DNA from: Naegleria gruberi
Lineage: Eukaryota
Assembly: GCA_000004985.1 (NCBI GenBank)
Contig: GG738913.1
DNA: 64,000 nt
Reading direction: 5' to 3' (one strand)
In this document: piece by piece, positions 35,178 to 62,983 of the stretch
How positions within the stretch are numbered: the stretch's first letter is position 1
Layout: every line of letters starts with the position of its first letter
Notes under the pieces: model-generated
Databases searched by the model: none
Told to the model about the DNA's origin: nothing
What the model saw: only the letters and a program-made list of their open reading frames with translations
Program-made: the position numbers and the translations under genes

Positions 35178-36989
35178 TTATTTATTGTTGTTGTTGTGGA
35201 GAGGAATGCACTGACCGTTGTTGCTTACATTGAGTGTGTTGGAGAGGAGTGGAGTGCCAATCTTGTTGGAAAGTGATGCTTGTGAAATGGAGGTGTGGAT
35301 GTGGGTTCCCTTCACCATTTTGAGAATTACGAAAGTGTCATACTTCTCTGTTGTGGTTTGGTCGCCATCCAATAGTTCAGCAAGTCCATAATATTCTGCT
35401 TCCAATTTGAAAACAGCCCAATCATACATTTTCACGCTCACGTATCCAATTTGTAAGAATTGATAAATTAATTTGAAGAATTTTGATGGTCTATCCACCA
35501 AAAATCTACCCTGTTCATCCATTCCACAATAAGATTCCAATCTATAAATTCTCTTATCAAATCCAGCACGTGCCAAAACTGTTTCGCATACAGTTAATTG
35601 AGTATCTGAAAAGACCAATGTAAAATATCCATCAATCATTCTCTTAGGGCTTGTATTGCCAGTCTTATTGGCTGTTGCTTGTTGCTGCAAATTGTTAGAG
35701 GAAATTGAATTTCTCCTAGACATGGTTGGTATTTGAATCACTGCATTTTGATACTCTTGTGTACTTCTCAATTCTCTCAATCTCTCTACGAATCTTTGAG
35801 GTCTGTCACAAAGGCAAAAGTTGGAAGCAGACAATCTTTCCCAACTTTTCAAATGACTTCTAATGTGAGCATAGTGGAAAAAGTCTGATTTCTTAACTTC
35901 CAAAATCATAATCCACAAACTAGGTACATTGGTTGTTTTTTTGAATTCCAATCGATAATGGATAGCAACTCTTGGAGCTGGTGTAATTTGGAAATTTCTG
36001 ATACAATTGTCAAACATGAGTCTAATCTTGTCTCTTTGTTTTTCAGAGAGTTTCATTCCCATGACAACACCATCATCTCGAACACCAAAAATCAAAGCAC
36101 CTCCATTAGAGTTTAAATAAGCAATCAAATACTCAGTCATTCTTTCTCCTAATTTAGCATAATCTATAACACCTGATTCTGAATTTGTTGAACTAGTAGA
36201 AGTTGCAGTGGTTGTTGGTGAAATTACAAATTGAACATGTGAATGCTCACTCACTGGTGTTTTCTCCAATGAACCAATATTTTCTGCAATGAGCTCCTTT
36301 TCAAGTTTTTGTGATTCCTCCTTATTGGTCGTCTTGAAATTGATATAATCCGAAAAGATTGTCAATTTATAATCAAGTGTATTTCCTTCATCATAATTTA
36401 ATTGTGTTCCAACAGGAAAATCTACATTCTCAATAAAGAACCAATCTTGTTGTTGTTGCTGAGTTTGAATAGAAGGTGATGGTGATACAGTTTTTACAGT
36501 TTTAATATTTAAATTATCGGTATATATAGATAATTTGGAATTTCCTCTCGAACGACCATTATTACCACTATTATCATCATCATCATCATTATTCATATTA
36601 TCACTATTTATATTATTATTATTATTACTATTATTACTATTACTATTTAATATTGTTGTTGTTGTTGTATTATGATGCATGGAAGAGGCTGATGATGGAA
36701 AATCCTTCAGCGATGAAGAAAATGGTGAAGTAATCGATCCAGTCGAAGTATTCGTATGTAAATCATCAATATCCTCATCAAAGCCTACTTTTGTATGATG
36801 ATGAGTAGTAGAAGCACCAACAACACCACTGGGAATATTAGAATTACTATTACTTTCATTGGAAAAGTAGGACCAATTAGAGTTTGTTGTTAAACTCGAA
36901 TGTTGTTCAAAATCTTCATCATCAATAATATCAGAATTGGATGATTTGTTGGTTTTTTCCTGTGGGGAAGTAGGTGGAGATTGTAACAT
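35178..36989 (-). CDS. AlbA_2 (Schlafen-like) + BTB/T1 (KCTD-like) domain protein with N/S/D-rich low-complexity N-terminus
   Basis: 603 aa. AlbA_2-type signature LNSNGGALIFGVRDDGVVMGMKL. C-terminal BTB/T1-like FTLVFSDTQLTVCETVLARAGFDKRIYRL...DEQGRFLVDRPSKFFKLIYQFLQIGYV...LEAEYYGLAELL. Poly-N/D tract encoded by an att/ttg microsatellite. Confidence 0.5.
   Translation of the reverse strand: MLQSPPTSPQEKTNKSSNSDIIDDEDFEQHSSLTTNSNWSYFSNESNSNSNIPSGVVGASTTHHHTKVGFDEDIDDLHTNTSTGSITSPFSSSLKDFPSSASSMHHNTTTTTILNSNSNNSNNNNNINSDNMNNDDDDDNSGNNGRSRGNSKLSIYTDNLNIKTVKTVSPSPSIQTQQQQQDWFFIENVDFPVGTQLNYDEGNTLDYKLTIFSDYINFKTTNKEESQKLEKELIAENIGSLEKTPVSEHSHVQFVISPTTTATSTSSTNSESGVIDYAKLGERMTEYLIAYLNSNGGALIFGVRDDGVVMGMKLSEKQRDKIRLMFDNCIRNFQITPAPRVAIHYRLEFKKTTNVPSLWIMILEVKKSDFFHYAHIRSHLKSWERLSASNFCLCDRPQRFVERLRELRSTQEYQNAVIQIPTMSRRNSISSNNLQQQATANKTGNTSPKRMIDGYFTLVFSDTQLTVCETVLARAGFDKRIYRLESYCGMDEQGRFLVDRPSKFFKLIYQFLQIGYVSVKMYDWAVFKLEAEYYGLAELLDGDQTTTEKYDTFVILKMVKGTHIHTSISQASLSNKIGTPLLSNTLNVSNNGQCIPLHNNNNK
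36611..36675. repeat. (ATT/ACT/GTT)n trinucleotide microsatellite inside the coding region, encoding the N-rich tract
   Basis: tattattattattattactattattactattactatttaatattgttgttgttgttgt, read directly. Confidence 0.7.
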
Positions 36990-41847: not shown

Positions 41848-43056
41848 TTAAAGATTTAGAATCACATCGATATCTTGATATATTTCCCTAATATGTTGTT
41901 TTACTTCAACACTTACATCATTATCACAAAGATAAAGATATTCTAATTCTTTCATAGTTGAAATATGTTTAGCTCCTTCATTGCCTAATGAATTCGTGTG
42001 AATTTCGAGTTCAGTTAGTTGATTCATTTGACTAATATATTTGGCTCCTTCAGCATCAACATTATTACCGCTTATATCCAGCAGGTTTAAATTTTGCAGT
42101 TGACTAATGTATTTACATGCGTTAGTCTGAATAGAATTATCTTCAATGTAAAGTTCTGTTAATTGATTCAATTGACCAAAGTTTTCAAAATTTACTCGAT
42201 CAGTAATCTCATTCGAGCCAATATTTAAAATTGTGAGCTGTTTCATTTCGCTTATATATTTAGCTCCTTCATCTCCAATAAAATTGTCATTAATATTAAG
42301 ATTGATCAACTGCTTCATTTCACTTATATGTTTAGCTCCTTCAGCACCAAATTCATTTCTAACAGTTTCAAGTTCTGTTAAATTGGTCAGTTTAATCAAG
42401 TGCGCAGCTCCTTCCTCATCAATATTGTTTGATGATATCACAAGACTCGTTAGTTGTTTCAGTTCACTAATATATAGAGCTCCATTACTTCTAATATCAT
42501 TCTTACTGATATCAAGATACGTTAATTTCTCTAGTTTACCTATATATTTTGCTCCTTCTTCCTCAATGTTGTTTGAACTAATATTAAGAAGTGTCAACTG
42601 TTTCAATGCACTAATGTGTTTGGCTCCATCGTTTTCAATATTGTTCCTACTAATGTACAGTGTAGTTAATGATTTACTCATCAAGTCAAATACTCCACAA
42701 TTAAACACAACACCTTTGATCCGAAAGTTCACTGACAATGTTTCAATATTTTGTAAAAATTCACCATTCAATTTCACATTGTTTTTACATTTCATATGTA
42801 ATTTCAATCTTTCCAAAATGACATTCAACCACTGTTTTGAAACCAATGCACAATTCATCACAATAAATTTAAAATTACCGGAATAATAATGTAAAACTTC
42901 ATAAATTACATCATCGGGAAGGATGTAATTTTGTTCTTTTAATTTTTTCTTTTTTAATTCTGATTCGGAATTATTTAGCTGATCATTAATAGCATCATCA
43001 TTGTTGAATATTGATTGATCCGACAAGTAACAACCTTCTCTTGCTCGTTTGCTCAT
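41848..43056 (-). CDS. F-box-like / LRR protein, paralog C
   Basis: Preferred ATG at 43056 (MSKRAREGC, A-rich context; it matches the M-x-KR-x-R starts of the paralogs). FKFIVMNCALVSKQWLNVILERLKL. About 13 RNI-type LRRs (LTLLNISSNNIEEEGAKYIGKLEK...). Confidence 0.65.
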   Translation of the reverse strand: MSKRAREGCYLSDQSIFNNDDAINDQLNNSESELKKKKLKEQNYILPDDVIYEVLHYYSGNFKFIVMNCALVSKQWLNVILERLKLHMKCKNNVKLNGEFLQNIETLSVNFRIKGVVFNCGVFDLMSKSLTTLYISRNNIENDGAKHISALKQLTLLNISSNNIEEEGAKYIGKLEKLTYLDISKNDIRSNGALYISELKQLTSLVISSNNIDEEGAAHLIKLTNLTELETVRNEFGAEGAKHISEMKQLINLNINDNFIGDEGAKYISEMKQLTILNIGSNEITDRVNFENFGQLNQLTELYIEDNSIQTNACKYISQLQNLNLLDISGNNVDAEGAKYISQMNQLTELEIHTNSLGNEGAKHISTMKELEYLYLCDNDVSVEVKQHIREIYQDIDVILNL

Positions 43057-43358
43057 TTTTTTTAAATTATTGTAAAATCCATTATTGGTGAATGCGAAGT
43101 AATCTATTCGAAATAATATAGCCTGCATTGTAAATCATTGTAATTCATTTATTGTAAGCAAGAATATATTAAAATTATTACAAAAATTTTCTTAACCTTT
43201 CACTTGGCATCATGGGTTCAAAAATTCGTTTAAGGAATTTCCGATGAGATTTCATCAGATGTTAATAGATCGATTACATTGGATGATAGTAATTGATAGT
43301 AATTGTGTATGAACCGCCAAAGCTAAATGTCATTAAACATATTCAGAGATAAAAAAAA

Positions 43359-46300
43359 ATGTCAGCACTCAAACAAGTTAAAATTGCTGCCTTGTTGCTC
43401 AATCTCTTAATTATTAGTTGGTGTTTGAATGTTTTTGGAGCGATTAATAGGTTTTCTGCAACTCCAAAGATATTCAATTTTGGTGGAGGAAATACAAGTA
43501 GGTTTCTATTGAGCTTTCGAATTGGAAACTAATATCAAAAAGTTGGTGATGGTTCGGATGCTAGTTTAGCTGTTTTGCAATCACCATTATCTCTATTTAC
43601 TGACTCTTATGAAAGTGGAGGTGATTTATTTATTGTAGAATCGAATAGAATAAGAAGAATCTTTTCCTCCAATAATACAATTGTAACCATAGCAGGAAAT
43701 GGATATTCTGGCTATACAGGAGAAGGATATCTTGCTCTTGAATCTAGATTATCCACTCCTAGTTCTGTTTTTGTTAAATCCAATGAAATTTACTTTACCA
43801 CATTGGACAGAATTAGAAAAATTGATTCTAAAGGTTATGTCACAACAATTACAGGAAATGGAATTCAACAATTAGGTCAGAATGGTGTATTTGCCAATAT
43901 TTCTTCGGTAAATATACCTTCCTCCTTGATAGTTTCAGATGAAAATGAAATATTCTTTGCTGACACTTTCAATTATCAAATTAGGAAAATATCTGATGGA
44001 ATTATTTCAACAATTTGTGGAATTGGAGAAAGTGGATATGGTGGAGATGATCCAATATTAGCCGTAGATTCTCCGATTGGATTAGTCACAGGAATGGCTT
44101 TAGATTTTGAAAATCGACTCCTCTATTATGTTGATTATGATAATAGACGAATCAAAATGATTAATCTCAATGATGAAATGCTCTATACACATGTTGGCGC
44201 AGGCTCCTTATTTGATGATAATGCTAATCGAAATGAAACTCAATTATCTTCTCCACACTCAATTGCCTTCTCATCCTATTCGGGTGCTCTCTATTATTCT
44301 GAAATTGCTAGTAATTACTCAGTGATTAGACGAGTTTATCAAGATGTGGTCAATACGGTGGTTGGTTCTGGAAATTCTGGTTTCTCTGCTGATGGATCCT
44401 TTGCTACTATTGCACAAATTAACAAACCAAAAAGTATTTGCATTACCAGTGATGAGGATATCATTTTCATTGACAGTGGAAATAACAGAATACGAAAGGT
44501 GCTTCACTCCAATGAAACTTTGATAACCATTTCTGGACAGAATACTTCCTTCAAAGCACCTTTCACAACTCCCATTCAATACTCTCAATTATACAATCCA
44601 ACGAGGATAAAACTATATGAGAACAAGACAATCATCACCGAATCAACAATTGTAAGACAAGTGGTGAATGGAGTAATTTCAATTGTAGCAGGTGTATATG
44701 GTAGCTTTGGAGTTGCACAAGAAGGTGCTTTGGCAACAAGCTCCTATTTGAGCTTTCCTAGAAGTGCTGCATTAGATCTTAATGGCAATATTCTCATAGC
44801 TGATTTCAATAATGGTAAAATCAAATTAATTACCAATAGCAAATCGTACACCTTTGCTGGAAGTAAGGCGACCTTTGGTCAAGAAAATGTGATTGGAACG
44901 GCCACAAGATTGTATAATGGATGTGGTTTCTCCTACTATAATGGAGAATTCTATTGGAATGATAGTGGAAATTGCAGAGTTCTCAAATTGGGAACTGATG
45001 GAATAGTTAGAAGAATTGCTGGCATAACAGGTATATGTGGCTTTTCAGGGGATGGTGGTTTGGCCACCAATGCTCTAATGGGAGTTTCATGGGGATTGAG
45101 TGTCTCACCAAGTGGTGATATTTATGTTGCTGAATCTATTAATTCTAGAATAAGAAAGATTTCGAATGGTATCATTACAACTGTTGCTGGAACATCAGTG
45201 GCTGGATACAATGGAGATGATATTGCTGCCACAAGTGCAAGCCTTAATGGCCCTCCTGCAGTCTTTGCTACCAGCACTGCATACTATTTGGCTGATGCTG
45301 GAAACCGTAGAGTTAGAAAAGTTTCATACAGCACTGGAATAATTACAACCATTGCTGGAAATGGAGCTAGTGGATCTTCTGAGGAGAATATTAATGCCAC
45401 AAGTGCAATTATTGGTACAAGCTCCCCAAGAGCTCTTTGGGTTAGCAATGACGATTCTGTCTATTATGCAGATGTTTCAAATGGAAAGACAAGAGTTGTA
45501 ACTAATGGAATAGTTTCGACCATCGCTGGAACTGGAGTGTTGGGCTATTCAGGAGATGGTGGTTTGGCAACCAATGCCAATTTTAGATGGATATATGGCT
45601 TGTGGATGGTTGGTTCTGACTTATATATTGCTGACAGTACTAATAATGTTATAAGAAAGCTGTCGAATAATATTGTAACCACAGTGGCAGGAACTGGAAA
45701 TGCTAACTTCAATGGAGATGGTATACCAGCTCTCTCTGCAAATATTAACACTGCCAATCAAGTAATTATTCATCCACAAACATCTGAAATGTTCATTCTC
45801 TCATCAGATAGAATCAGAAAGGTCAACACCAATGGCACCATTTCCACAGTGGTTGGAGGTATTGGTGATGGGGCTCAGGCCATATATGCACTCATTAATC
45901 CAACAGATATTCATGTCACCAATAATGGTACAATCTATCTCACAGATTCATTAAATCATTGCATTAGAATGATTACAAGTGATGGAGTTATTTCACTTGT
46001 TGCTGGTTCTTACTATGGTGGTTTTGGAGGTGATAATGGACCTGCTGCTAACGCTGTTTTGAATAGTCCAGAATCTCTATTTGTAAATTCGAAGGGTGAA
46101 ATTTACGTTTCAGATACAGTCAACCATCGAGTAAGAAAAATTGATTTGAATGGAACCATTACCACAGTTGCTGGGAGTGGTTTGGCTGGTTTCTATGGAG
46201 ATGGTGGATTGGCTACAAATGCTAAATTGAGTTATCCTATGGGAATTTACGTATCCAAAAATGGTGACATTTATATTGCTGATTATGGCAATCATAGAAT

Positions 46301-49300
46301 TCGAAAGGTTTTCAGTAATGGAACAATCACCACTATAGCTGGAACTGGAAGCATAAATTATAATGGAGATATTCAGGAGGCAACTTTAACAACTCTTAAT
46401 TCACCAAGAGGAGTTTACATGTCACCAAATGAAGATGAAATTTACATTGCCGATTCGGGAAATAACTTGATTAGAAAAATCAAACTTGATTGTCCATCAG
46501 ATTATGAATTGGACAAGAGATTGGGAGAGTGTGTGCAAATTGTCAAGTGTTTTGGTATTTTGGCCACCGACAACTCAGTTTGTTCTGGAAATGGACAATG
46601 TGTCGATGGAAGCTGTATCTGTAACAACCAAACCTTTACAGGGCCTAACTGCTCTAGTATCACTTGTTTTGGAAAAGTACCTTCAGATTTGATGGTTTGT
46701 AGTGGAAATGGTCAATGCGTTACAGCAAATAATTGCTCATGCCTTTCTGGTTATGTTGGGAATGAATGTCAAGCGAATCTGAATCCATTCTCCATCGAAT
46801 TGTTGAGAAATGAAACTATTTCCAATAATTATAGTTATCAGATTAAGGATAATGGATTGAATATGACAAATTATTATTGGACATGCCAGAATTGGGATCC
46901 AAATATTTCAATTTCAACAAGTGGAAGGAATGCATTCGTAACTTTCAGTTCAGCTTACTCTAAAGTGTATCTGTTGTCGGTTTATGCTTCAATTCCCAAT
47001 TTCAGCCCATATCCTCCAAGAATTTCGAATACTATCCTGTTCACTATTATTTCCCCTAATGTTACCATTCAGCCAAGTTTCAATCAAACAACCAATGAAA
47101 CTCTACAAAATAACCAGACAGTGAACTCAAACCAAACAACAAACAATTCATCCATTCCCGTTCAAAATAATCAAACAATAGCAAACGAAACATCCACTAA
47201 TTCAAACAGTACTGATACCAAAAGCGTTAATATTTCAGGAAAGTTGGGAGTTTTTGGTCTTCCCTCGGTTTTGGTTTCAAAACAGATTGACGTTTCAGCA
47301 GTAATTTCTAATATTTCACTGAACCAAACTTCTATCAATTCGTTCCTATCATGCACTCCTAATTGTACATTAAAAATTTCATATGAATGGAAAATCAATA
47401 TTGATAACAACCAAGCAGCCAATCAAACTGGTTTTACCACTTCCATTTCTTTAGGTAATAATTTGATGAGCTTTAATCCACCAATTCAAATCCAATTCAG
47501 TACAAGTAATGTAAAAGGAGAGAAATTCACACTTTCCCTTGCCCTTTTTTCAAACAATGGAAATATTTCATCGAGTACAAGTATGGATATCGTTACCCCA
47601 GTCCAACCACCAACAGCATCTAATTCCACAACTTCAAAATCATCAAATTATTTAATGAGTGTCAATCCAGAGAAGGGAGTTGCCCTGAGTGACTCATTTT
47701 CAGTTAGTGTCGCATCATGGAATGCACCATCACAAATTCTTCCTCTCAAATATGCTATTGGATTTGTTTCTAATGGAAAGGACGTGAGATTTACAGATTA
47801 TGCACAAACTACTTTGTTCAATATTTACCTTCCTTACTTGATCCAACAATCCAGGGGTCAAGTTTCAGAAATTCAACTCTATCTCTATGTTATGGATGCA
47901 ATTGGAAATGTTGTAACATCTCCAACTGGACTCTCCATTTCAGTTTCTCCTTTTAATGGAACTTCTAGTGAATTGGTCCAAAAAATCAACGAGCTTGGCA
48001 CTACTTCACTAGTAGTTGCATCCTATGATAAATCCTATACAGTTCTCTCAAGTAGTGGAGGAAATTCAAGTGAGTTAGTGTATGAAATTGTGAAAAATAT
48101 TCAAATTGATCCAAAGAATCCAGAAACTGCCCTCACATCCATCACCAGTCTTACATCCACTACGAGTGTAATTAATGAAAATATTGTGAGTGAAGTAGCA
48201 AGTAAGATCACCTCGTTTGTTGATAATGTGAAAGATATCTATGCATACGAAAAGAGAGTATATGGATTTGTCAAAAGCAAGGTTTCACCTGACAATATTC
48301 TCTCTACTGTGACTATTACTTCCAACCTATTAGCAAGTGGAGTTGATAGCGAGAAAACTGTTGGCGTAGTTGATAATGTTGCCTCAATGGTATTGTTAGC
48401 AGAAATTCCAAAACTTCTCACAAGCTCTGAAAAGCTCCAATACATCTCATTCACAACTGGTATGGTGAATATTACAGTTTCTAGTTTCAAGATGACCTCT
48501 CCAATAGAGGGTAATCAACTAATCGAGGAGGAGAACAATAAGGTATCTGCAAATTTGACAAGTATCATGATGGAATATGGAACCTTAAATAAGGAGTGTG
48601 GTCTATCGATGGTCTCCTACACAAAGAACATGAAGTTTGACAATTACACATCAAATACTATTCATGCTTCGAGTATTAACGATTTCAAATTCATTCAAGA
48701 GCAAAATATTGTACGACTCGATAATCTCGAGCATCCAATTGTGCTATCATTCAAATTATCTCATATTCCACAACAAAACAGTTCAGTAAATTCCACATTC
48801 TCCTGCAGATATTGGGATGAAACTAATAAGATATGGAGCGATAGAGGTTGTCAACTTTCCAATATTGACCTGAATGCTGGCACAGTAGAATGTTCATGCA
48901 GCCATACTACAATGTTCACAACATTTGTAGAACAAAAGACTACCAGTATTATGATAGCAATGAAAGAAGAAGTTGCAACATTATATTTTGTACAAATAGC
49001 TCTTGGTGCTGTTTATACTATTGTTGCTTTGGTAATTATTACTGGTTTGATAATATTGAGAAAGGAGCAACCAGTAACAAGTAGACTTATCACCCCATAT
49101 GTAGGAATGGTGGCTCTCATTGCAGAGAGTGTGTTGATTTACATTGTCCAAAGAAGTGTCCTTGTGAGTCAGCTCCTTTCCACAACAGATCCCAAAGTAT
49201 GGGAAGTTGGTGATAATGCTGCCAATATTATTGCAAACAGTGTTGCCATTGTTGTGAATACTTTGAATTTGACTGCTACATTGTGCTATGTGATGCAAGT

Positions 49301-50732
49301 TTCCAGATTCCAATTCCTTAAACATTTGTACAAGCTCTTGTCCGATAATAGATCAGATATGGCAAAGAATGCCAAGATTTTGAAAGTCCTCAAATTGATA
49401 ACCTCTCAGAAAATATTCTTTTCAATTATTGCAATCTTTGCCGTGTTGAATGTTTGTTTCTGGACTCTTTGGGTTGTTCTAGTAAGGACACAAGTCATTG
49501 ATGCCTCTACCTATACCTATATTGTATCATCTTGTTACATTACTTGTATTCTCTTCTTTGGAGCAGTTATTTGCATTGTAGCCATTGCTGATTGGATTAT
49601 TTCCACCAAGAAACACGTAACAGCAGGTCAGGAAAGAAAGAGAAAGACTGTCAGTTTCACCACTCTCAGCTCTGAACCACGAGAATCCATCAAGAAGCGA
49701 CTCTTCTCTCCAAAACAACTCTACGAATGGTTAATTCAAGTTGATGAACCACTCTATTTCCGATTCGAAATGCTCCTCTACATGATTTGCTTTGTCTTCC
49801 AAGTGTTAAATCTTGCCATTGGCTCCTCCAGTCTTTCCTACCGATATGCTGACTTGGATTCATACAAGAAAGCACTTGCTCTCGATGGAATCTCCTTCAT
49901 CTTTGAAGTACTCTATGTGGTGAGTTACTTGTTTGTGTTTGGTGGTTTTGCTCTCTTGATTGCCATATTGTACAAGTACAAGAAGAAGAAACAACATGAT
50001 GAAGCCTCTACTTTTCTCATCAACAAATTGAATGGTGGCAACAATAACAAGGTCGACGAAGGAATCATGAGTGAGGAGATGAGGGATGTGCTAGATAAGA
50101 ACGAAGGCTATCTATTATTCGAAGCCTTCTGTGAGAAGGAATTCTCTCTAGAAAACCTCTACTTGTACTCTGACTTGAAAGCCAATGAAACCATCACCAA
50201 AGGAAGACAATTCACCAACCTAACAACCTTCATGAGATTCATCTTTAATAACTACATCCGAACAGGAAGCACCACAGAAGTGAATATACCAGCCAAGTGT
50301 AGGAATAACTTTTTACTTGTCTATAAGAATGTAGCATCAAGTAGTGAACATATGCAACAACAATTGGGAATTGCTGAGAAGGTGAGTAGGAGTGAGGTGG
50401 AAAGACTCGATAGGAATCTACAGGTGGTTATCAAGAATGATCAAGTAGCTACTTTATCAACTAAAACAACAACTACAACTTCTACTAATGAACAACAACA
50501 ACAAGAAGGAAATATCAAATCTTCATCGCCAGTAGCTGCTGTAGAAAATGTTGATCATGTGGTGGAGGGTGTTGTTTCTGCCTTTGAATTCCTCTACAAG
50601 CAAACATTGGTTAATTTGGGTGATACCTTCTCTCGATTTGTCTTTACGAGTGAATACAAGGAATATTTGGCTTCATTGGAGGCTCAGAAGGTTGTTACGG
50701 TGGAAATTATTGCTGCCTACGGAGATGTTTAA
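43359..50732 (+). CDS. giant secreted multidomain receptor: signal peptide, about 20 NHL repeats, 2 EGF-like modules, S/T/N-rich stalk, GPS/GAIN-like motif, 7TM, cytoplasmic RGS domain; join(43359..43497,43543..50732)
   Basis: Exon 1 MSALKQVKIAALLLNLLIISWCLNVFGA... is joined through a 45-nt GTAGGT..AAAAG intron, phase 1. NHL-type repeats (TIAGTGxxGYSGDGGLATNA...P.G....G..YIAD..N..IRK). EGF-like CSGNGQCVDGSCICNNQTFTGPNC and CSGNGQCVTANNCSCLSGYVGNEC. GPS-like CRYWDETNKIWSDRGCQLSNIDLNAGTVECSCSHTTMFTTF. Seven hydrophobic helices at 48960..49990. RGS signature FEAFCEKEFSLENLYLYSDLKANE. Confidence 0.85.
43498..43542 (+). other. spliceosomal intron (45 nt, GTAGGT...AAAAG) after the signal-peptide exon
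   Basis: ...GGGNTS(I) | GDGSDASLAVLQSP. Phase-1 junction; removes the in-frame TAA. Confidence 0.7.
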
Positions 50733-51417: not shown

Positions 51418-52825
51418 TTATTGAGCTGGTTTATTTGATCTTAGAGGAGACTTGGAAGCTGTAGTTGTCTTTCTAACACCCAAAACTGAGGAAGGTGTTG
51501 AACCAGTTGATCTCTTTGTTGGTGAGCTTGCTTTGGTTGTTGTAGTTGTTGTCGAAGACTTTTTAGTTGGAGAAGAGGATGGTGACCTAGTGACTGATGT
51601 TGGTTTCTTTACTCCCAAACTTGAGGATGGAGTTGTTGTAGTTCTTGTTTTGGTTGGTGAGACAGATTTGGTGACTGTTTTAGAGACTGTTGGTTGACTT
51701 GATACAGTTGTGGTAGGCTTGGTTGTTGCAGTAGTTGACGAACAAGAGCTACCTTCCTTTGCAATTAAATTCTTAATTGCTGTTTCCAATTCCTTTTGGC
51801 TAAATCCTTCAAGACGCTTTGATTCCTTTCCATGGTGGAAGAGCTTGAACGTTGGTAAGCAGCTAATACGTTCCTTAGAAGTGATAGAGTAGAGTTTTGA
51901 TGTATCTACTTTGATAAATTTAACTTTTTGATTACTGAAAGCTAATTTGCTGTATGGAGTTGCACAAGCAACACAAGCTCCACAATTATCTCCATAATAA
52001 TCTGCAACAACTAGAGAATTATCCTTGAGTACGTGATTATATTCCTCCTCACTCTTGACATAGGTAACAAATTCATCACTCGATCCAGCCAACATGTCCT
52101 TCTTCAAATATTCCTCAGATGGAGAATCAAAGTGTAATAAGCATTCCTCCATTTCATAAGAAGATCCACCAATTACAGTTTCCTTCATTTTTCCATTGTA
52201 GAAAAAGACAAATGTTGGCATTGCATGAACATCACATTTAGACATGATCTTTCTATGTTCATCCACATTGACTTTCATAAAGGTGACATCTGTATGTTTG
52301 GCAGCTAAACTCTCAACATATGGAGTGATAGCCTTACAAGGACTATTAAAGGTACATTAATAAAAAGGAAAGTCAAACAGAAACATACCCACACCAATCA
52401 GCATAGAAATCAACTACAACTTTGGTTTTAGATTTGATTGTATCATCAAAATCTTTTTCCTTAACAATATGAAGGATTCCATTTTCGTAAAATGGTGGTT
52501 CAAGTTGCTTTGCTAACATGTCAGCATTTCTTGATACAATGGATTCACAAAGACCATCCAACTTTTGAACAACTTCTCCTTGGGAAATAAAGAGAAAGGT
52601 CGGAAGACACTTGGCTCCATATTCATCAGCAATGCCACTAAAATTATTAATATCCACCTTAGCAAAATTAACCTTTGGTTTTTCAGAGGCCAATCCCTCA
52701 TAATTAGCATCATAGTCTCTGCAAACACCACAATAAGGTGATGAAAAGTAAACTACAACTGATGGATTTTTAGCGATCAAACTACGAAACTCTTCTTCGG
52801 ATTGAATCTTTGTAAAATTGGTCAT
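51418..52825 (-). CDS. three-thioredoxin-domain (PDI-like) protein with Ser/Thr/Pro-rich C-terminal tail; complement(join(51418..52342,52389..52825))
   Basis: Domain 1 FSSPYCGVCRDY. Domain 2 active site WCG | PCK is reconstituted only by removing a 46-nt GTATGT...TAG intron (52343..52388); without splicing, ORF 1 ends DWCGYVSV*. Domain 3 DNCGACVACATPYSKL. The 100-aa T/S/P-rich tail is mucin-like. ATG at 52825 in an A-rich context; no signal peptide from that start. Confidence 0.8.
52343..52388 (-). other. spliceosomal intron (46 nt, GTATGT...AATAG) splitting the WCGPCK thioredoxin active site
   Basis: tgg tgt gg | gtatgtttctg...ctttaatag | t cct tgt aag. Confidence 0.85.
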
Positions 52826-54052: not shown

Positions 54053-57000
54053 TTATTTATCATTACTTGGACTGACAGGAGTGGCAGCAGTGACACCAAT
54101 AGAACCAAAGCCACCAACATCAATCTTCAAGAAGGATTTACTCTTCTTATCGTCATTTTCCAATCTCTTTTCAATCCATCCAATAATTTCAGTATTATCA
54201 CTTTGAATGGCAAGTTGTAAAGCTTGTTCAAGTGAGACAGCTCCAATTTCACACAAATACTTGACAACATTCAATTGAACACGTTTGATGGCCATTTCCA
54301 AAGGTGAAACTCCATTCAATGTCTTGATAGCACTAATGTCAACTTTCAATGGTGAATCAGCTGCTGGAGCGAATTTACCATGGTAATTTCCATTTTCAAC
54401 TAATAATTTAACAACGTTTGGATGTCCATAACCAGCTGCAAAGTGGAGTGGAGTCAATTGTTTGTCTTCTCTTGTGTTGATGACTACTGAACAGTCACAA
54501 CCCTTTTCAATGAGATATTGAGCACAGTCAACTCTGCCACTGATAGCACACAAGATAATTGGTCTCATTTGCAAGTCGTGTCTAGATTGATCAACTGAAA
54601 CATTGTACTTTTCAACAAGCAACTTGACAGCATCCAAATTACCATTCTTAGTAGCAGCATGAATTGGTGGATAGGAATTTTCAGTGTACGATTCTTCATA
54701 ACTTCCACAAGGATCCAATTTAACTTCATCAATCAAATATTCAATAACACTGACATTTCCTCCATAAGCAGCAGCTGAAAGAATTGTTTCGGCTCCCTCT
54801 GTAACAGCACCACTGTTAGCACCCTTTTCAATGAGCTTCTTGACAAGCTCAACTTGAGAATTTTGAGCAGCAAAATAAAGTAATGATTGACCCAAACTAT
54901 TGGAGAAGTTCAAAATGTTTTCCTCAGATGGGTTTTCAAGAGCTGTTTGAACAATCTTGGCACCGACGTGTCCTGGCAAATCCTTACATTGAACAGCAAG
55001 GAAAATTGGTAAATCCTTTCCACCAGAACGCTTTTGACAGTCAACTCCATGGTCAACCAAGAAAGAAGCAGCAGGTGGGCAGTGCAACATGCAATTGTGG
55101 AGAGCAGTATATTCTACAGAGTCAGCAGCACGTTTTTCACTTTCATTGACAAGATTGGTCAATTCTTCACTTGTCAACAAGTTAGCATTCAAAATTAATG
55201 GAATGGCATTCATGTTCTTTGCTCTGATAGCCAAATGCAAGAAGGTTGATGAAGAGTGCATTCCAGAAACAGTGCTACCAATATCGAAACGAGAGAGGGC
55301 AAACTTTGGAACTTTGGAGAAGAGAGTCTTCAAGATGACTTGACATTTTTCCAAACAGAATTCATCATGGAATTGAATTCCAGAAATTACAAATTCAATC
55401 AAGAGATTTCTCAAATTTTCCTTCACTTCACCATCAGAATTATCATCAGATGGTGGAGCAATGAATTCAGAAGCCAATTCTTGTAAGTGGGTTTCAATGG
55501 CTTCAGTAGTGACCAATCCAATAGATCCTGTTTGAGTATTATCACCAATGATACTCTTTCCAATTGAAAGCCACTTGGTCACGAGTGGATTATTATTAAT
55601 GGTGAAGAGAACAGATTGATTTGCTGTTGAGCTAGTTGGAGCCAATGGATTGGAAGGTGCATTCTTGTAACCTGGAGTGGCTAATCTTTCATTGAAAGAG
55701 TTCAACAAGGTAGCATTCATCAACTTTCTAGTATTTGAACCAATCAATGAAACCAACATTGCAAATGGACTCATCTTGCCATACTTTTTCAATTCTTCCA
55801 ATTTAATATTACCATACTTGGAAGCTTCACTTTCTGTAATCTTGTCAACATTTCGTTTAGTTCTAAAGAACAAATTACCACCTCCTCTCTTGAGCAAAAT
55901 CTCCAACATTCTTCCATTTTGATTGTAAATGGCATAGTGCATTGGTGTCCAACCAGCATCATTCTCAACATCAACTTGAGCATCTTCATAAACCAATTTT
56001 GTAACCAAATCAAATTCATTTTCACGAGCACACAAATTCAATGCAGTAAATCCACCATTCTTATCAATTTGATTAATGTTAATCTTACTTTCCTTCTTCT
56101 TTTCCAAGATCATACTCAATAATTCTTCACGTGGTTTCAATTGACCTCCAGAACGTGGTGAAATGCCACGAGGAGACATTCCTCCAGATCTAGGTGAAAT
56201 GGATGAACTAAATTCAGCTGTACCAGAAGTATTTAAACTCAATCCAGGAATATCACTTGCAAGTGTTGAGCTAGCAGTTGCTGTCGAAGAATTTTTACTG
56301 TCAGCAAGTGTCAAATCTCTTGAAATGGCAATGAAATGCAAAGCAGTTTGATCCAAACGATTCTTCTTATTAAAATCAACCCCATTATCCAACAAGAACT
56401 TGGTCAATTTCAAATCCTGATTCTTCACAGCAATATGCAATAAAGAATCCTTGTCAACATAACCCATTTGTGTCAATTGTCTAATTTCTTCACTTGTCAA
56501 ATATTGTTCATCTTCTTCATCATCTGATAAATCTTCTTCTCTCAATCCAGGAGCAATTGTCATTCCTCTTGATGAAGGAGTTTTTGGAGTATCTTCTTTC
56601 GAATAATGTAAATAAGCTAATTTCGAATATTCTCCATTACCAATCAAACTACGAACGTCAGTAAAGGAATGTTGTTCGATCAATTTTACAACTTTGAGAT
56701 GAAGTTGAGTTTGAGAAGATTTCAATTCGTCAATTACGTTTTCAATGGCGTTCATCCATTCTTTACGTTGTTCTTGATTTTCGGCTGAGAACCAATAGGT
56801 GAAAGTGGTTGGGGAGTCTTCAGATTGGTTATTTGATCCTTCCTCATTGGAAGGAGCTGTTGTTTTTAAACCAAAGGTGTTTTCTATTGTTATTCGAAAG
56901 TAAAATTAATATTCGAAAAAAGGTAAAATGATCGAATAATGTGATGATTACTTACGGAAACCTTTGTGATTTTCAATATCTACAATAGTAGAAAAACGAG

Positions 57001-58893: not shown

Positions 58894-61800
58894 CTATTGG
58901 AGAACCTTTTTACAAGTTTGATATATATTATCCAAACTTTCTGCCATGTGTGATGAATCTGTTGTTCTGGAAATATTGCAAATTTCTCTCAGGGTTTGTT
59001 CATATCTCAATAATTGTGCCCTCATGGACTGATTTTCAAACCTCAAAGCATCCATTGTTGAACTTTTCAATTGTAATAATCCTTTCAATAGATCGACATG
59101 TGTAAAATGTTTGGTCGGCTCCTTTAGAATTTCTAATAGATTATTCATAATTTTGAGATAATGAATACATTCTCCTCTGTGTGTTGAACGAGATTGGATC
59201 ATTGTAATTAAACACCTTCCAAGAATATCATTGAATAGCACCTTTTCCAAAAAAGAATTAGGATGGGAGCAAATAACCTCAAGATTTGGATCTATAAACT
59301 TGTCAATTTCCTTTCTAATAGATTGATGAAGCATGGCCTCTCCTTGTGGAGTACTTAATAACTTGAAAAAGTAATTTTTTCCAACTCCAAATAAACAAGA
59401 TGAACCAGAATCTTCATTCGTTGATATAATACTCAATGTTCTGTTGCAGATCATTTTCATTAAGACACATCCCATTGAGTAAGTGTCACAATTCTTTGAG
59501 ATTTTGAAATTTTCCGTTTGTTTGCCTTCTTCCTCATCATAAACCTCTGGAGCAAGATATTACCATGTCCCTATATTCACTGATATTGAGTGGTTGGATT
59601 GAATAACTTTGGAATTGTCAAAATCAATGAGTTTGGCATGTCCTTCATTGTTGATTATTACATTTGCCAACTTTAAATCTGTACAAAATTTCAGTATTGA
59701 TTTTGAAAACAATAAACATACCTCTGTGTGTGAAATTTAGATTATGCAAACTGATGACACCCTCAAGAACTTCAGTAAAGTACTGTAAAACTTCAATCAA
59801 ATCTTGAGTGGATAAGCAATGCTCCAAATTTAAATAATTTTGGTGCATTTCTGACATTACATGATCCAAAGGAGATCCCATTTCCATAATTAAATAGCTA
59901 TACTTGCTATTATGCAACTCATAAAAATTACATTCAAATGTTTTGACAATACCCTTCAAATTTGGTGTTTTCTGCATTTAAAGTTGTGAGTTAATGGAGT
60001 ATGAGGTAGGAGACTTTTTACGGGCAATTTTTCAACAATTTCTTCAATCCTACCGTCTCTAACATATTGATAGAGTTGAAATAGAAATTGAACATCCTCT
60101 CTAAGTTGTTCGGTCTCTAGGACGTAATTTAAAATCTGTTTGTTCTCATAAAGTTTGTTAATTTTTACACAGTCCAAAATTAGTTCAGTATCCAATTTTT
60201 TAGTCGAGTAGAGGATGGCCAATCCAAAAGTTTTGGTAGCTGTCAAGATAATATTTGAATCGCTTTGTAGGGAATTTGATGCAAATTTCAAAAGTTCACC
60301 TTTTTTCTCAATGAGTGGAGTGATAAGATTCTTTCCATACTTGAATTTTTCAGAGGCGAATTGAATGGAAAGTGGATTTTGAGCAATCGCCATCTGAACT
60401 ATTTGTAAATCCTCTTTGAAAATACCTGGAACTATTTCAAGAAGCAATCCGTTCCTTTCTACATATTCCAATATCTTCATTTTGTCGTTTTTCAATTCTC
60501 TAGAAGCATATTCGAAAGAATAATAGTTTTGAGAAACTGCAAGATCAACTATTGTAGGATTATTCCTCAATCTTTCAGATGCATACTTTAAAGATAGTCC
60601 TCTCGATTTTACAGCAATAGAAACGAGACTTTCATCATCCTGAAAGGAGTTTGGAAGAAATTCCAAAGCATATCCATTAAATTCGAGCAACTCCTTCATT
60701 GTTTCAATGCTTACAGTATTCCAATCTGTAAATTTTTGGAGAAGCATTACATTTCTTTCTGTCAATTCTTTTACAGACATATTTTCCTTCATTTCCAAGT
60801 TTAAATAAGAAAATTCCTGTTTCATCAAGAAATTAATAAACACCTGCAGTGCTGGGCAATCAGTTTTGATTCGAATAAAGTGTTCTAAATAATCCATGCC
60901 ATGGATTATGTTATTTTTCGTAACCTTGTTACCAATACCGCCTCTACTAGTTTCACTTTGAGGAAATACCAAAGCCAATAGAAAATAGTATTGAACGGCC
61001 ATTTCTGATGTTGTTATGGCTACTGCCTTCATATCATCAATCAACTTTTCAATAATTTCAAAAGTATAACTTTGTGAAAGGTTGTTGATATATCTGAAAA
61101 CGATATCGACTCCCAAAATTGTTAGATTTGAAATCATACTTCTTATACTGGAACGATAGTCCATTGCTAGGAACCAGTAATTAATGTTCTTCCAATAAAT
61201 TTCCTTTAACAATTCCAAATTACAACAATTTCTTGATTTCTGTTGAAACATTTTCTTGAAACAAAACTCAATTAATTCAAAATCTTTTTCATCTTGAGTA
61301 GTTTCTACAAATTCTCTAAAAATACTGAAAGATTTGTTAAGGTTACGAATTGACTGATTGTAATATGTTTGTAAGAGCATTGCTTTAAATCTTAAAGTTG
61401 CTTCCTTGGATAGTATTTGACTAATTACACCATTTTCGTCCAACAACATGCTGCATTCCGTGAGAGAGCAATAGCAATGTAGATCTTTTGATTCTTTAAC
61501 TAGCATCAATGCATCAAGAATATCTAGTTGTGTTACATGGGAAATAAAAATGAAATTGTCAATAGATATTCTTTCGTTAATAGAAATGACCTCTTGCGGT
61601 AGGTTTCGAATGCTCTTTTGTCTAAGATTCAACAATTTAAGCAGACTGGGACCAAAATATTTACCTTCATCATCGTACACAATTCCTGAATCACGAAATT
61701 GTTTCTTAGCTGATCCATCACTATTAAATAAAATTGAGGAATATTGAGAGTGGACCAAACCTTTAGTCAGCACAATATAATTCTTTTCATCTAACATCAT

Positions 61801-62983
61801 GAGTTCTCTAATGTCATATCCAAAATCCAATGGATCTGTATTTGTTTCATAATCCATTAATAAATTGAATGCTTGATGAATTTTATCATCCATGATAAAT
61901 TGAAAAGCTTTTTGAATTATTGAATGATCTTTTTTGGTTGGAATCTTAATATTTGGATGTGTGAATTTCATAACAATTTGAGTAGTAGACTTGTAATTAG
62001 TGATTCCTTCGATAGTTACAAATAGTCCATGAATGGTTTCTTGAATATTAGTGAATTTTGTTTGTTTCAATTTTGAACCTTCTTGGTGTTGGCTCATTAA
62101 TTCTTCTACAGTCAATGTCTGAAATAAATCAACACTTTTGTCTTTGTTAATATTGTAAAATTGTAATGTTTTTCCATCATGTGAAATACAGGAAGCTAAT
62201 ATTGGTTGACAAATTGAAATTCTCTTAAAAAAATAACCATTAAAAGTGATATCATTCTTTTCAATATTTGAAATCAATTGAGCAACAACTTGAATCTCTG
62301 TCTTTCCATTTCTAATATCGGCTTCATCTCCATTCAACACAATCTCTTTCAAAATTGTTTCGGTTTTGTAATCATACACTACATACACATTCCTAAATCT
62401 CAATACCATACTATTTGCGAGAAAAATCAATGAATCACATCTTTTAGATTCAAATTTCTCCAAATTAAATCTTTTTTCAAAAGATAGAAATAAAAAAGTC
62501 ACTGGTAATTTTCTGTAAACTGTAAATCGAAATTCCTTTCCCCAAACAATACAAAAAGAATCGTCTAAACTTTGTAAAGGAATTCTTCTTGTACAAGAAA
62601 TCAATTCTCCTGTTTCTTTCTTTTGGAAAATGGAATTTCTTTCCTTTAGTGTAAAATCCAAATCAGATCCAGTCTTCTGGAATGCGTTACCCTCAAATTT
62701 AATTGTCAGCTCTTTTCCTAAAGCTGAAAAACTGTAAGAAAAGAGTTGTACAATAGAATTCACACCTTCACCTTGTAAACTTTTATCAATTACTGTTGAG
62801 TAATGAACAAGCAACATTCCTTTTTCTTCATGACATTCAATTTTTTGAATGGAACAAGTTTCGGGTGAATTTTCTTGGAATAAATGTTGGTGGTGAAAAC
62901 TTACCACAAAATAATTCCCAAATTTGTTCCACAAATAACTTGCTGATATTTTGAATCAAAGGTTGAACAAGTAATCGAGCCAT
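58894..62983 (-). CDS. DUF4116-repeat + C-terminal Ser/Thr protein-kinase-domain protein carrying an in-frame TAA; complement(join(58894..59678,59722..59971,60022..62873,62905..62983))
   Basis: A large N-terminal region with DUF4116-like repeats (ALEFLPNSFQDDESLVSIAV, LSLKYASERLRNNPTIVDLAVSQN, YSFEYASRELKNDKMKILEYV...). Kinase subdomains are split by two introns: ...EKLP | KTPNLKGIVKTFE (50 nt, GTAAAA..CAG) and NFTHR | DLKLANVIINNEGHAKLIDFD (43 nt, GTATGT..ACAG). Then SISVNIGTW-TAA-YLAPEVY...CDTYSMGCVLM. The 5' exon (MARLLVQPLIQNISKLFVEQIWELFC) and its 31-nt intron are tentative. Confidence 0.55.
59560..59562 (-). other. in-frame TAA stop inside the conserved kinase activation-segment motif (GTW-*-YLAPE)
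   Basis: Minus-strand codons ...ata ggg aca tgg TAA tat ctt gct cca gag... The reading frame remains open and kinase-like for 220 more codons downstream. Confidence 0.8.
59679..59721 (-). other. spliceosomal intron (43 nt, GTATGT...GTACAG) splitting the HRD motif
   Basis: cac aga g | gtatgtttattg...ttttgtacag | at tta aag restores HRDLK. Confidence 0.75.
59972..60021 (-). other. spliceosomal intron (50 nt, GTAAAA...TGCAG)
   Basis: Joins the 59956..62934 ORF frame to the 59645..59977 ORF frame with phase 0. It removes the TGA that ends the upstream ORF. Confidence 0.6.

What the first reader, a model, noticed from the sequence alone, without database searches (positions are those of the whole stretch)
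43359..50732. A 2,440-aa secreted NHL / EGF / GPS / 7TM receptor fused to its own RGS domain
A single ORF is continuous for 7.2 kb, plus a signal-peptide exon joined by a 45-nt intron. It combines about 20 NHL-type beta-propeller blades (IAGTG..GYSGDGGLATNA), two EGF-like modules and a long S/T/N-rich glycosylated stalk. A GPS-like autoproteolysis motif (C..W...C....C.CSHTTMF) sits immediately before seven hydrophobic helices. A canonical RGS box (FEAFCEKEFSLENLYLY) follows in the cytoplasmic tail. In animals, adhesion-GPCR-like GAIN/GPS-7TM modules and the RGS GTPase-activating protein domain are normally separate. A self-terminating adhesion-type GPCR fused to NHL propellers is, as far as I know, not a described receptor class. 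It could represent a lineage-specific sensing system, for prey, substrate or cell-cell cues.
Basis: partly seen in the sequence, partly recalled or inferred. Interest (0 to 1): 0.85.

Follow-up and report, generated by a model that had tools for sequence, protein, structure and literature searches.

The report
Naegleria NHL–GAIN–7TM–RGS surface receptor
The gene is real and built as described, but it is an already annotated Naegleria gruberi member of a known amoeba family of seven-helix membrane proteins carrying their own G-protein "off-switch" (RGS) domain, so it is not a new receptor class.

Summary
Observation confirmed. Exon 1 (43359-43497), a 45-nt GT..AG intron and exon 2 (43543-50732) give a 2442-aa protein. 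It is identical to NCBI XP_002670636.1 / UniProt D2VZ75 (N. gruberi NAEGRDRAFT_74387, "predicted protein").

Domain order:
- signal peptide
- 18 NHL blades
- 2 EGF modules
- N-glycan-rich REJ-like module
- GAIN domain with GPS motif (H1834-T-T1836)
- 7 TM helices
- RGS domain with the Gα-contact residues intact

Interpretation partly supported. The claim of an undescribed class is wrong. Bosch et al. 2022 (PMC9283941) catalogued 28 "7TM RGS" proteins in N. fowleri. Several carry GPS motifs and EGF or lectin ectodomains, and three RGS domains were shown to act as GAPs on Naegleria Gα subunits.

An exhaustive profile search found 404 relatives (72 at E<=1e-30). NHL-bearing members occur in N. 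gruberi, N. fowleri and Willaertia.

The most likely mechanism is a ligand- or force-regulated transmembrane GAP for Gα, like AtRGS1, rather than a self-terminating GPCR.

Novelty: new member of a known kind. The NHL ectodomain and the REJ-GAIN pairing are variations on that kind.

The parts
43359..43497 (+). Exon 1: start codon and signal peptide (aa 1-27 = 43359-43439), up to the first base of codon 47
   Evidence: Hydrophobic segment at aa 9-27. The sequence was read directly. The spliced product is identical to XP_002670636.1.
43498..43542 (+). 45-nt intron, GT..AG
   Evidence: Sequence GTAGGTTTC...CAAAAAG. The splice restores the frame and reproduces the public protein model exactly. No transcript data were available here.
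43543..50732 (+). Exon 2, through the TAA stop (50730-50732)
   Evidence: Continuous ORF.
43581..46493 (+). NHL beta-propeller region, aa 60-1030: 18 blades, probably three six-bladed propellers
   Evidence: Pfam TEN_NHL 3e-48 and NHL 3e-39. The xRIRKI motif occurs 18 times at about 55-aa spacing. The split into three propellers is inference.
46494..46778 (+). Two EGF-like modules, aa 1031-1125 (13 Cys)
   Evidence: Pfam EGF_2 and EGF_Teneurin, 2 stretches each. Cysteine count.
46779..48080 (+). N-glycan-rich REJ-like module, aa 1126-1559 (24 N-x-S/T sequons)
   Evidence: This segment has no Pfam hit of its own. It is homologous to regions of P0003 (7e-72), P0001 (2e-69) and P0011 (1e-52). P0001 and P0003 score as Pfam REJ at 9.6e-9 and 1.8e-10 in that region. 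REJ was found in 4 of 38 family members, best E 4e-28.
48081..48932 (+). GAIN domain, aa 1560-1843. It contains the GPS motif (aa 1800-1839 = 48801-48920). The predicted scissile bond is T1835|T1836 (codon 1836 starts at 48909). A Stachel-like strand T1836-MFTTFV follows.
   Evidence: Pfam GPS 8.6e-6. The AF2 model shows a helical subdomain plus a beta-sandwich, pLDDT about 80-90. Foldseek hits: CD97 8ikj 2.9e-10, BAI3 4dlo 1.9e-8, BAI2 8oek 2.2e-7, CL1 4dlq 8e-7. C1830, H1834, T1836 and F1838 are invariant in 39 relatives.
48987..49973 (+). Seven-transmembrane bundle, aa 1862-2190, N-terminus outside and C-terminus inside
50067..50687 (+). Cytoplasmic RGS domain, aa 2222-2428, interrupted by a low-complexity insert of about 80 aa (aa ~2312-2389)
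   Evidence: Pfam RGS 31 bits, above the 23.9-bit cut-off. PDB profile hits: RGS16 3.3e-6, RGS10, RGS8, RGS4. The C-terminal helices align to the paralogues' complete RGS; P0002 matches Pfam positions 4-115 of 117. E2246, E2250, N2251 and N2294 are invariant, and S2248, D2407, T2408 and R2411 nearly invariant, in 38 relatives.

Best explanation
This is N. gruberi gene NAEGRDRAFT_74387. It is one paralogue of the heterolobosean GAIN-7TM-RGS family, called '7TM RGS' proteins in N. fowleri.

Shown here:
- It is a type-I, heavily N-glycosylatable surface protein.
- Its ectodomain has 18 NHL blades, 2 EGF modules and a REJ-like module, and ends in a GAIN domain placed directly on a GPCR-fold seven-helix bundle.
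- The cytoplasmic tail carries an RGS domain with the Gα-binding and catalysis-assisting residues intact.

Inferred mechanism: the protein works as a receptor-type GTPase-activating protein. At rest its RGS domain keeps nearby Gα subunits in the GDP state; some Naegleria Gα subunits load GTP on their own. Binding of a particle, surface or cell to the NHL/EGF ectodomain, or pulling on it, would change the GAIN/7TM conformation. This might involve separation at the GPS and exposure of the TxFxxF strand. The result would be altered access of the RGS domain to Gα, or altered residence of the receptor at the membrane, which would release or sharpen local Gα signalling. AtRGS1 works this way when it is endocytosed.

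The cytoplasmic face of the bundle and the GPS strand are the best-conserved parts of the family. That fits coupling between these two ends.
For: Gene and architecture.

Family membership:
- An exhaustive profile search with the 7TM-RGS part found 404 cluster representatives (72 at E<=1e-30). Most are 1200-2700 aa with the 7TM-RGS at the C-terminus.
- Named members are from N. gruberi, N. fowleri and Willaertia magna.
- Of 38 scanned members, 37 have RGS and 30 have GPS.

Structure:
- GAIN fold.
- GPCR fold of the bundle.

RGS competence:
- The residues equivalent to RGS4 E83, S85, E87, N88, N128, D163, S164 and R167 are E2246, S2248, E2250, N2251, N2294, D2407, T2408 and R2411. They are invariant or nearly so.
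- The mapping to RGS4 contacts rests on my knowledge of the RGS4-Gαi1 structure (Tesmer 1997).

Conservation: it clusters at the GPS strand and at ICL1, the cytoplasmic ends of TM2, TM3 and TM5, and the start of TM6.

Literature:
- RGS domains of N. fowleri 7TM RGS2-4 accelerate GTP hydrolysis on Nf Gα2, 3, 5 and 7. Gα5 and Gα7 self-activate (PMC9283941).
- 7TM-RGS proteins act as GAP receptors in plants and protists (PMC3971589).
- The AtRGS1 endocytosis and derepression model, and about 44 Gα genes in N. gruberi (PMC8584482).
Against: - No experiment exists on this protein or on any full-length family member. PMC9283941 itself says it is undetermined whether these proteins are receptors and how cues would alter GAP activity.
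- Naegleria also has slow-exchange Gα subunits that bind the same RGS domains, so a GEF role for the bundle is not excluded.
- The GPS reads H-T|T rather than the consensus H-L|T (PMC10622838), so autoproteolysis is uncertain.
- The RGS carries an insert of about 80 aa of unknown effect.
- The relative placement of RGS and bundle in the AF2 model is unreliable (pTM 0.42).
- No expression data were examined.
Confidence: 0.6

Rival explanations
1. This is the first reader's model: a true GPCR with a built-in terminator. The seven-helix bundle acts as a guanine-nucleotide exchange factor for slow-exchange Gα subunits when the GAIN/Stachel is engaged. The tethered RGS domain then rapidly shuts off the same Gα, giving brief and spatially tight pulses.
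For: - The bundle has a GPCR fold with a well-conserved cytoplasmic face.
- The GAIN domain has a conserved H..T and a TxFxxF strand that resembles tethered agonists.
- N. fowleri has Gα subunits with slow exchange that presumably need a GEF, and only one conventional GPCR candidate was found there. These Gα subunits bind 7TM-RGS RGS domains (PMC9283941).
Against: - No 7TM-RGS protein in any organism has been shown to act as a GEF. The characterised ones act as GAPs on self-activating Gα.
- The bundle shows no sequence relationship to any GPCR family with demonstrated G-protein activation.
Confidence: 0.22
2. It is mainly an adhesion or matrix-binding surface protein. The NHL/EGF/REJ/GAIN ectodomain does the work: attachment to substrate or prey, and a shear-sensitive NTF/CTF junction as in polycystin-1. 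The RGS domain would only be a Gα-docking anchor or an inactive scaffold.
For: - The ectodomain is about 1830 aa, three quarters of the protein. It has teneurin-like NHL and EGF modules and a REJ-like/GAIN pair as in PKD1-family proteins.
- Some RGS domains have lost GAP activity and act as scaffolds (PMC3971589).
Against: - The RGS contact and catalysis-assisting residues are invariant across the family.
- Three related N. fowleri RGS domains are active GAPs.
- The 7TM cytoplasmic face is under strong constraint.
Confidence: 0.12
3. It is an annotation or assembly artefact. Two neighbouring genes (NHL-EGF and GAIN-7TM-RGS) are read as one, or the gene is a decaying pseudogene.
For: - Several relatives are annotated as split or truncated models. 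N. lovaniensis C9374_004465 and C9374_004464 are one example, and N. gruberi P0004 ends inside TM2.
- No transcript evidence was examined.
Against: - The frame is open for 7.2 kb in a 33-38% GC genome with no stop.
- All domains are intact and in register.
- The same N-to-C order recurs in full-length paralogues and in N. fowleri and Willaertia.
- The split models elsewhere look like under-prediction, not like real gene boundaries.
Confidence: 0.03

Closest known systems
Naegleria fowleri 7TM RGS proteins (Nf 7TM RGS1-4 and 24 others; Bosch et al. 2022, PMC9283941)
   Same: - The core is the same: GPS motif, seven TM helices, C-terminal RGS, and large ectodomains with EGF repeats.
- Homology is direct. 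N. fowleri FDP41_005437 matches the 7TM-RGS profile at 1.6e-232, and FDP41_008291 has NHL-GAIN-7TM-RGS.
- The N. fowleri RGS domains are proven GAPs.
   Different: - This is the N. gruberi paralogue, with 18 NHL blades in front of only two EGF modules. Its nearest N. fowleri relative has a long EGF array and no NHL.
- The paper mentions EGF and lectin domains, not NHL or REJ (0 occurrences of 'NHL').
- I could not map Nf 7TM RGS1-4 to specific homologues.
Arabidopsis AtRGS1 (plant 7TM-RGS)
   Same: It has seven TM helices followed by a cytoplasmic RGS domain that acts as a GAP on a self-activating Gα. It is regulated by ligand-induced phosphorylation and endocytosis (PMC8584482). This is the best functional analogy.
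   Different: - AtRGS1 has almost no ectodomain, no GAIN/GPS and no NHL/EGF.
- Homology between the two 7TM bundles was not tested here.
Metazoan adhesion GPCRs (class B2; e.g. CD97/ADGRE5, latrophilins, BAI)
   Same: - A GAIN domain with GPS abuts TM1 (Foldseek 2.9e-10 to 1.7e-6).
- The ectodomains are long, modular and adhesive.
- His(-2), Thr(+1) and Phe(+3) are conserved at the GPS strand.
   Different: - The 7TM is not detectably a 7tm_2 member.
- The P1 residue is Thr, not Leu.
- A C-terminal RGS domain is present, which no metazoan aGPCR has (PMC3971589 states that metazoans lack 7TM-RGS).
Polycystin-1 / sea-urchin REJ (PKD1 family)
   Same: A REJ-type module lies directly upstream of a GAIN/GPS at the membrane. 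The protein links to heterotrimeric G proteins.
   Different: - There is no PLAT domain, no 11-TM or channel-like C-terminus, and no PKD repeats in this protein.
- The REJ assignment for the window protein is only by homology to relatives that pass Pfam REJ.
GPR158/GPR179 with RGS7-Gβ5
   Different: In GPR158 the RGS is a separate polypeptide recruited in trans. There is no sequence relationship, and the ectodomain is unrelated.

Membership tests
7TM-RGS proteins (heterolobosean GAIN-7TM-RGS subfamily) | Seven TM helices, N-terminus outside, followed by a cytoplasmic RGS domain in one polypeptide | tested here: met
   Seven hydropathy segments at aa 1867-2188 after a signal peptide. Positive-inside loops. 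AF2 seven-helix bundle with pLDDT 88. Pfam RGS above cut-off, C-terminal to TM7.
7TM-RGS proteins (heterolobosean GAIN-7TM-RGS subfamily) | Sequence homology of the 7TM-RGS core to N. fowleri family members | tested here: met
   Profile hits: N. fowleri CAG4715528/FDP41_005437 at 1.6e-232, P0008 at 8.7e-97, FDP41_008291 at 4.9e-31.
7TM-RGS proteins (heterolobosean GAIN-7TM-RGS subfamily) | RGS domain retains the Gα-contact residues and the catalysis-assisting Asn | tested here: met
   The EFSLEN motif (E2246, S2248, E2250, N2251), EVN2294IP and GD2407T2408FSR2411F align to RGS16/RGS4 motifs. They are invariant or at least 90% conserved in 38 relatives.
7TM-RGS proteins (heterolobosean GAIN-7TM-RGS subfamily) | GAP activity on a cognate Gα | not testable with these tools
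   It has been shown only for three N. fowleri relatives (PMC9283941).
Adhesion GPCR (class B2) | GAIN domain with GPS immediately N-terminal to TM1 | tested here: met
   Pfam GPS 26.6 bits, above the 22.5-bit cut-off. The AF2 model matches solved GAIN domains at E 2.9e-10 to 5e-4.
Adhesion GPCR (class B2) | GPS consensus H-L|T/S and autoproteolysis | tested here: inconclusive
   The sequence is H1834-T1835|T1836. His and Thr(+1) are invariant, and P1 is Thr in over 90% of relatives instead of Leu. The consensus is taken from PMC10622838. Cleavage itself cannot be tested here.
Adhesion GPCR (class B2) | 7TM belongs to the secretin/adhesion 7tm_2 family | tested here: not met
   - No Pfam 7tm family at E<=10 for the segment or at E<=1 in 38 relatives.
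- A 39-sequence profile hits no solved GPCR at E<=10.
- The best Foldseek E is 0.048, with no aGPCR in the top 50.
- A profile-profile test (HHpred) was not available.
Adhesion GPCR (class B2) | Activates heterotrimeric G proteins (GEF) | not testable with these tools
Polycystin-1 / PKD1-REJ family | REJ module upstream of GAIN/GPS | tested here: inconclusive
   The window segment aa 1120-1620 has no Pfam hit. It is homologous (E 1e-52 to 7e-72) to regions of relatives, and two of these pass Pfam REJ there.
Polycystin-1 / PKD1-REJ family | PLAT domain after TM1 and an 11-TM, channel-like C-terminal half | tested here: not met
   There is no PLAT or PKD_channel hit. Only seven TM segments are present, followed by RGS.
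Teneurins | Type-II orientation with EGF, NHL propeller, YD-shell and Tox-GHH | tested here: not met
   Only the TEN_NHL and EGF_Teneurin models match. The order is NHL then EGF, behind an N-terminal signal peptide, with no YD or Tox hits. The resemblance is at the level of single domains only.

The most novel reading that the evidence does not exclude
The heterolobosean GAIN-7TM-RGS proteins would be 'inverse adhesion GPCRs'. Force or ligand binding on the ectodomain (here three NHL propellers) would separate the protein at the H-T|T GPS. The exposed TxFxxF strand would then dock into a non-class-B seven-helix bundle and switch a tethered GAP on or off. That would be a tethered-agonist mechanism controlling G-protein deactivation rather than activation. 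It would also mean that GAIN-7TM coupling arose, or was assembled independently, outside the animal and fungal side of the eukaryote tree. Bosch et al. hinted at this analogy, but nobody has tested it.
Probability: 0.25. Interest if true: 0.7.

Novelty: new member of a known kind. Interest (0 to 1): 0.35.

Why it matters
The family matters for three reasons:
- It joins the hallmark module of adhesion GPCRs and polycystins (GAIN/GPS) to the plant and protist style of G-protein control, a receptor-borne RGS.
- It is greatly expanded in Naegleria, a genus that includes the lethal N. fowleri.
- If the GPS strand regulates the RGS, that would be a new use of the tethered-agonist principle and a possible drug target class.

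This particular gene adds only a further ectodomain variant (18 NHL blades plus a REJ-like module) to a family already catalogued. It is already in public databases as an uncharacterised predicted protein.

Tried and rejected
Searches that led nowhere:
- The word-index homologue searches returned only 2-4 proteins each and never the protein itself. The exhaustive search was needed to find the self-match and the family.
I therefore got no transcript or assembly evidence for the intron.
- The afdb50 fold library was unavailable, so AtRGS1 and protist models could not be compared structurally.
- Anantharaman et al. 2011, which probably discusses these fusions, is not held.
- Searches for 'GAIN domain' plus Naegleria, and for REJ plus Naegleria, found nothing relevant.

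Ideas considered and rejected:
- Bacterial origin or contamination. The window is a N. gruberi NEG-M scaffold: an exact 1577-aa match to EFC37886.1 and the target equals EFC37892.1, both on a 236,320-bp contig.
- Two separate genes. There is one open frame, and the same domain order occurs in paralogues.
- A polycystin-like 11-TM protein. There are only 7 TM segments and no PLAT.
- A second family member in the window. tblastn found none.
Full report
**1. Observation**

The + strand holds an uninterrupted ORF at 43575-50732. Upstream, an ATG at 43359 opens a 139-nt exon encoding a hydrophobic signal sequence. A 45-nt GT..AG intron (43498-43542) joins it in frame to the long exon. The spliced product is 2442 aa.

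The exhaustive protein search later returned a 2442-aa protein, P0010, that is identical residue for residue. Its accessions are EFC37892.1 / XP_002670636.1 / UniProt D2VZ75, 'predicted protein NAEGRDRAFT_74387 [Naegleria gruberi]', on a 236,320-bp scaffold. Another window ORF (16078-20808) is an exact match to EFC37886.1 from the same scaffold.

No transcript data could be retrieved.

**2. Domains**

Pfam hits above curated cut-offs are TEN_NHL and NHL (3e-48, 3e-39), EGF_2 and EGF_Teneurin (two modules), GPS (aa 1800-1839) and RGS (aa 2227-2309).

- *NHL region.* The blade-closing motif xRIRKI recurs 18 times at about 55-aa spacing between aa 79 and 1019. That gives 18 blades, most simply three six-bladed propellers (inference), not about 20.
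- *Middle region.* The segment aa 1126-1559, read as a glycosylated stalk, carries 24 of the 45 ectodomain N-x-S/T sequons. It has no Pfam hit itself. It is clearly homologous to regions of close relatives (E 1e-52 to 7e-72). Two of these score as Pfam REJ there (9.6e-9 and 1.8e-10). REJ is found in 4 of 38 family members (best E 4e-28). I call it REJ-like.
- *Transmembrane region.* Hydropathy gives seven segments between aa 1867 and 2188. Lys/Arg-rich loops precede TM2, TM4 and TM6, and the tail after TM7 is also rich in Lys/Arg. The topology is therefore ectodomain out, RGS in.

**3. GAIN domain**

An AF2 model of aa 1560-2442 (8-sequence alignment, mean pLDDT 68, but about 80-90 over the first 280 residues) shows a helical subdomain followed by a beta-sandwich. 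The last strand of the sandwich is TTMFTTFV.

Foldseek against the PDB gives:
- full-length inactive CD97 (8ikj), 2.9e-10, with 691 aligned columns spanning GAIN plus 7TM
- the GAIN domains of BAI3 (1.9e-8), BAI2 (2.2e-7), latrophilin-1 (8e-7), ADGRL3 and GPR56

In a 39-sequence family alignment C1830, H1834, T1836 and F1838 are invariant. C1832, T1835 and F1841 are at least 90% conserved. The adhesion-GPCR consensus is H-L|T (PMC10622838), while this family has H-T|T. The base and nucleophile positions are kept but P1 differs, so cleavage is plausible and unproven.

**4. Seven-helix bundle**

- class C type: GABA-B2, GPR156, GPR158
- class A: CB2, CX3CR1, P2Y14
- Frizzled
- class B1: GIPR, PTH2R

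No adhesion GPCR is in the top 60. Foldseek gives only weak hits (best E 0.048), again without adhesion GPCRs in the top 50.

By sequence, nothing links the bundle to a known GPCR family:
- no Pfam 7tm family for the segment at E<=10
- none among the 25 commonest families in 38 relatives at E<=1
- no solved GPCR at E<=10 with either a 3- or a 39-sequence profile

The bundle is GPCR-fold, but it is a family of its own as far as these tools can see. The 'adhesion-type' label holds for the GAIN domain only.

Conservation is highest at the GPS strand and on the cytoplasmic face. The conserved elements are ICL1 (QPVxSR), the start of TM2 (TPYxG), the end of TM3 (QVxRF..K..Y), D2063 after TM5, and PLYFRxEM at the start of TM6, plus VFGG in TM7.

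**5. RGS domain**

Profile hits to solved RGS16, RGS10, RGS8, RGS5, RGS4 and others run from 3e-6 to 1e-4. The Pfam match stops at position 82 of 117. An insert of about 80 aa of low complexity (aa ~2312-2389) separates the last helices; the insert is absent in the paralogues. Those last helices align to the paralogues' complete RGS domains.

The motifs EFSLEN, EVNIP and GDTFSRF correspond to RGS4 E83-N88, N128 and D163-R167. That mapping is my knowledge of the RGS4-Gαi1 complex. E2246, E2250, N2251 and N2294 are invariant in 38 relatives, and S2248, D2407, T2408 and R2411 are at least 90% conserved. The domain looks GAP-competent.

**6. Family**

The exhaustive profile search with the 7TM-RGS part found 404 cluster representatives at E<=1e-3, 129 at E<=1e-10 and 72 at E<=1e-30. 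Most are 1200-2700 aa with the match at the C-terminus.

Named members come from N. gruberi (at least eight paralogues), N. fowleri, N. lovaniensis and Willaertia magna. Unnamed ones come from metagenomes.

Local phmmer mapping shows a constant GAIN-7TM-RGS core and shuffled ectodomains:
- EGF arrays are commonest.
- NHL arrays occur in N. gruberi NAEGRDRAFT_67572 (1e-210), 63528 and 80558, in P0088, in N. fowleri FDP41_008291 and in a Willaertia protein.
- RCC1, PKD and B-lectin domains also appear.

The nearest N. fowleri relative (FDP41_005437, 2720 aa) has an EGF array, REJ, GAIN, 7TM and RGS without NHL. No second member lies in the window.

**7. What is known**

Bosch et al. 2022 (PMC9283941) report 28 N. 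fowleri '7TM RGS' proteins:
- Several have EGF repeats and lectin domains.
- The RGS domains of 7TM RGS2-4 are selective GAPs for Nf Gα2, 3, 5 and 7.
- Gα5 and Gα7 self-activate.
- Whether the proteins are receptors is left open.

De Mendoza et al. 2014 (PMC3971589) show 7TM-RGS architectures in many bikonts, chytrids, filastereans and ichthyosporeans, but not in metazoans. AtRGS1 is the studied example: ligand-induced endocytosis removes the GAP and derepresses a self-activating Gα. N. gruberi is credited with about 44 Gα genes (PMC8584482).

NHL and REJ in these ectodomains are not mentioned in that paper.

**8. Mechanism**

Best supported (about 0.6) is a receptor-type GAP. The ectodomain would sense a surface, particle or cell. 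The GAIN/7TM unit would transmit this across the membrane. The output would be a change in how the tethered RGS domain deactivates Gα.

The rivals are:
- a true GEF-GPCR with a built-in terminator (about 0.22). It is kept alive by the slow-exchange Gα subunits and the scarcity of conventional GPCRs in Naegleria.
- a mainly adhesive protein with a scaffold RGS (about 0.12)
- an annotation artefact (about 0.03)

Shown: architecture, folds, residue conservation and family membership. Inferred: surface location, cleavage, GAP activity, direction of regulation, and ligands.

**9. Verdict**

The finding is a real, correctly read gene. It is already annotated, though uncharacterised, and it belongs to a family described in 2022. 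I rate it a new member of a known kind, with ectodomain variations (18 NHL blades, a REJ-like module) and an unclassified GPCR-fold bundle. Interest is moderate to low for this finding. The untested 'GAIN-gated GAP' idea for the family as a whole would be of considerably higher interest.

Noticed in passing
window 16078-21467 (+): The annotated protein EFC37886.1 (1577 aa; TPR, PAS, many TM segments) ends inside its adenylate/guanylate cyclase domain (Pfam PF00211 positions 3-64 of 183 at aa 1515-1576). Just downstream, short ORFs in other frames (20865-21119 and 21156-21467) carry the missing cyclase motifs (LRIGINTGSVVGGVIG; GRIQVS...VEVKGKGLMQTYVL). The public model probably misses two short introns and the last exons.
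   Followed up: partly
P0003 / P0006 (N. lovaniensis C9374_004465 and C9374_004464); P0004 (N. gruberi): Relatives of the target are split or truncated in public annotation. The two adjacent N. lovaniensis models together make one EGF-REJ-GAIN-7TM-RGS protein. N. gruberi P0004 (NHL-EGF-GAIN) stops inside TM2 with an unrelated tail. Family counts based on annotation will therefore be too low or fragmented.
   Followed up: partly
window 50337-50570 (aa ~2312-2389 of the target): A low-complexity insert of about 80 aa, rich in Thr and Gln (…TKTTTTTSTNEQQQQEG…), sits inside the RGS domain between its first and last helices. It is much shorter or absent in the closest relatives P0001 and P0002. The AF2 model has pLDDT below 50 there.
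   Followed up: partly
window 41848-43128 (-): A 426-aa LRR_6/LRR_8 repeat protein is transcribed divergently from the target, 230 bp upstream of its ATG. No functional link was examined.
   Followed up: no
window 51418-52278 (-): A 286-aa ORF has a thioredoxin-like CGAC motif followed by a long Ser/Thr/Pro-rich tail. This was seen in the translation only, and no profile search was run.
   Followed up: no
window 7061-8632 (-), 35178-36989 (-), 54053-56755 (-), 59956-62934 (-): Other genes in the window are an RCC1-repeat protein, a Schlafen AlbA_2 domain protein, a 900-aa ankyrin-repeat protein and a DUF4116-repeat protein. RCC1 repeats also occur as ectodomains in two members of the 7TM-RGS family.
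   Followed up: no
tool behaviour: The word-index homologue search never returned the target's own public protein (XP_002670636.1) or most paralogues. The exhaustive representative search found them at once. A negative result from the first tool alone would have wrongly suggested that the gene is unannotated and nearly orphan.
   Followed up: yes
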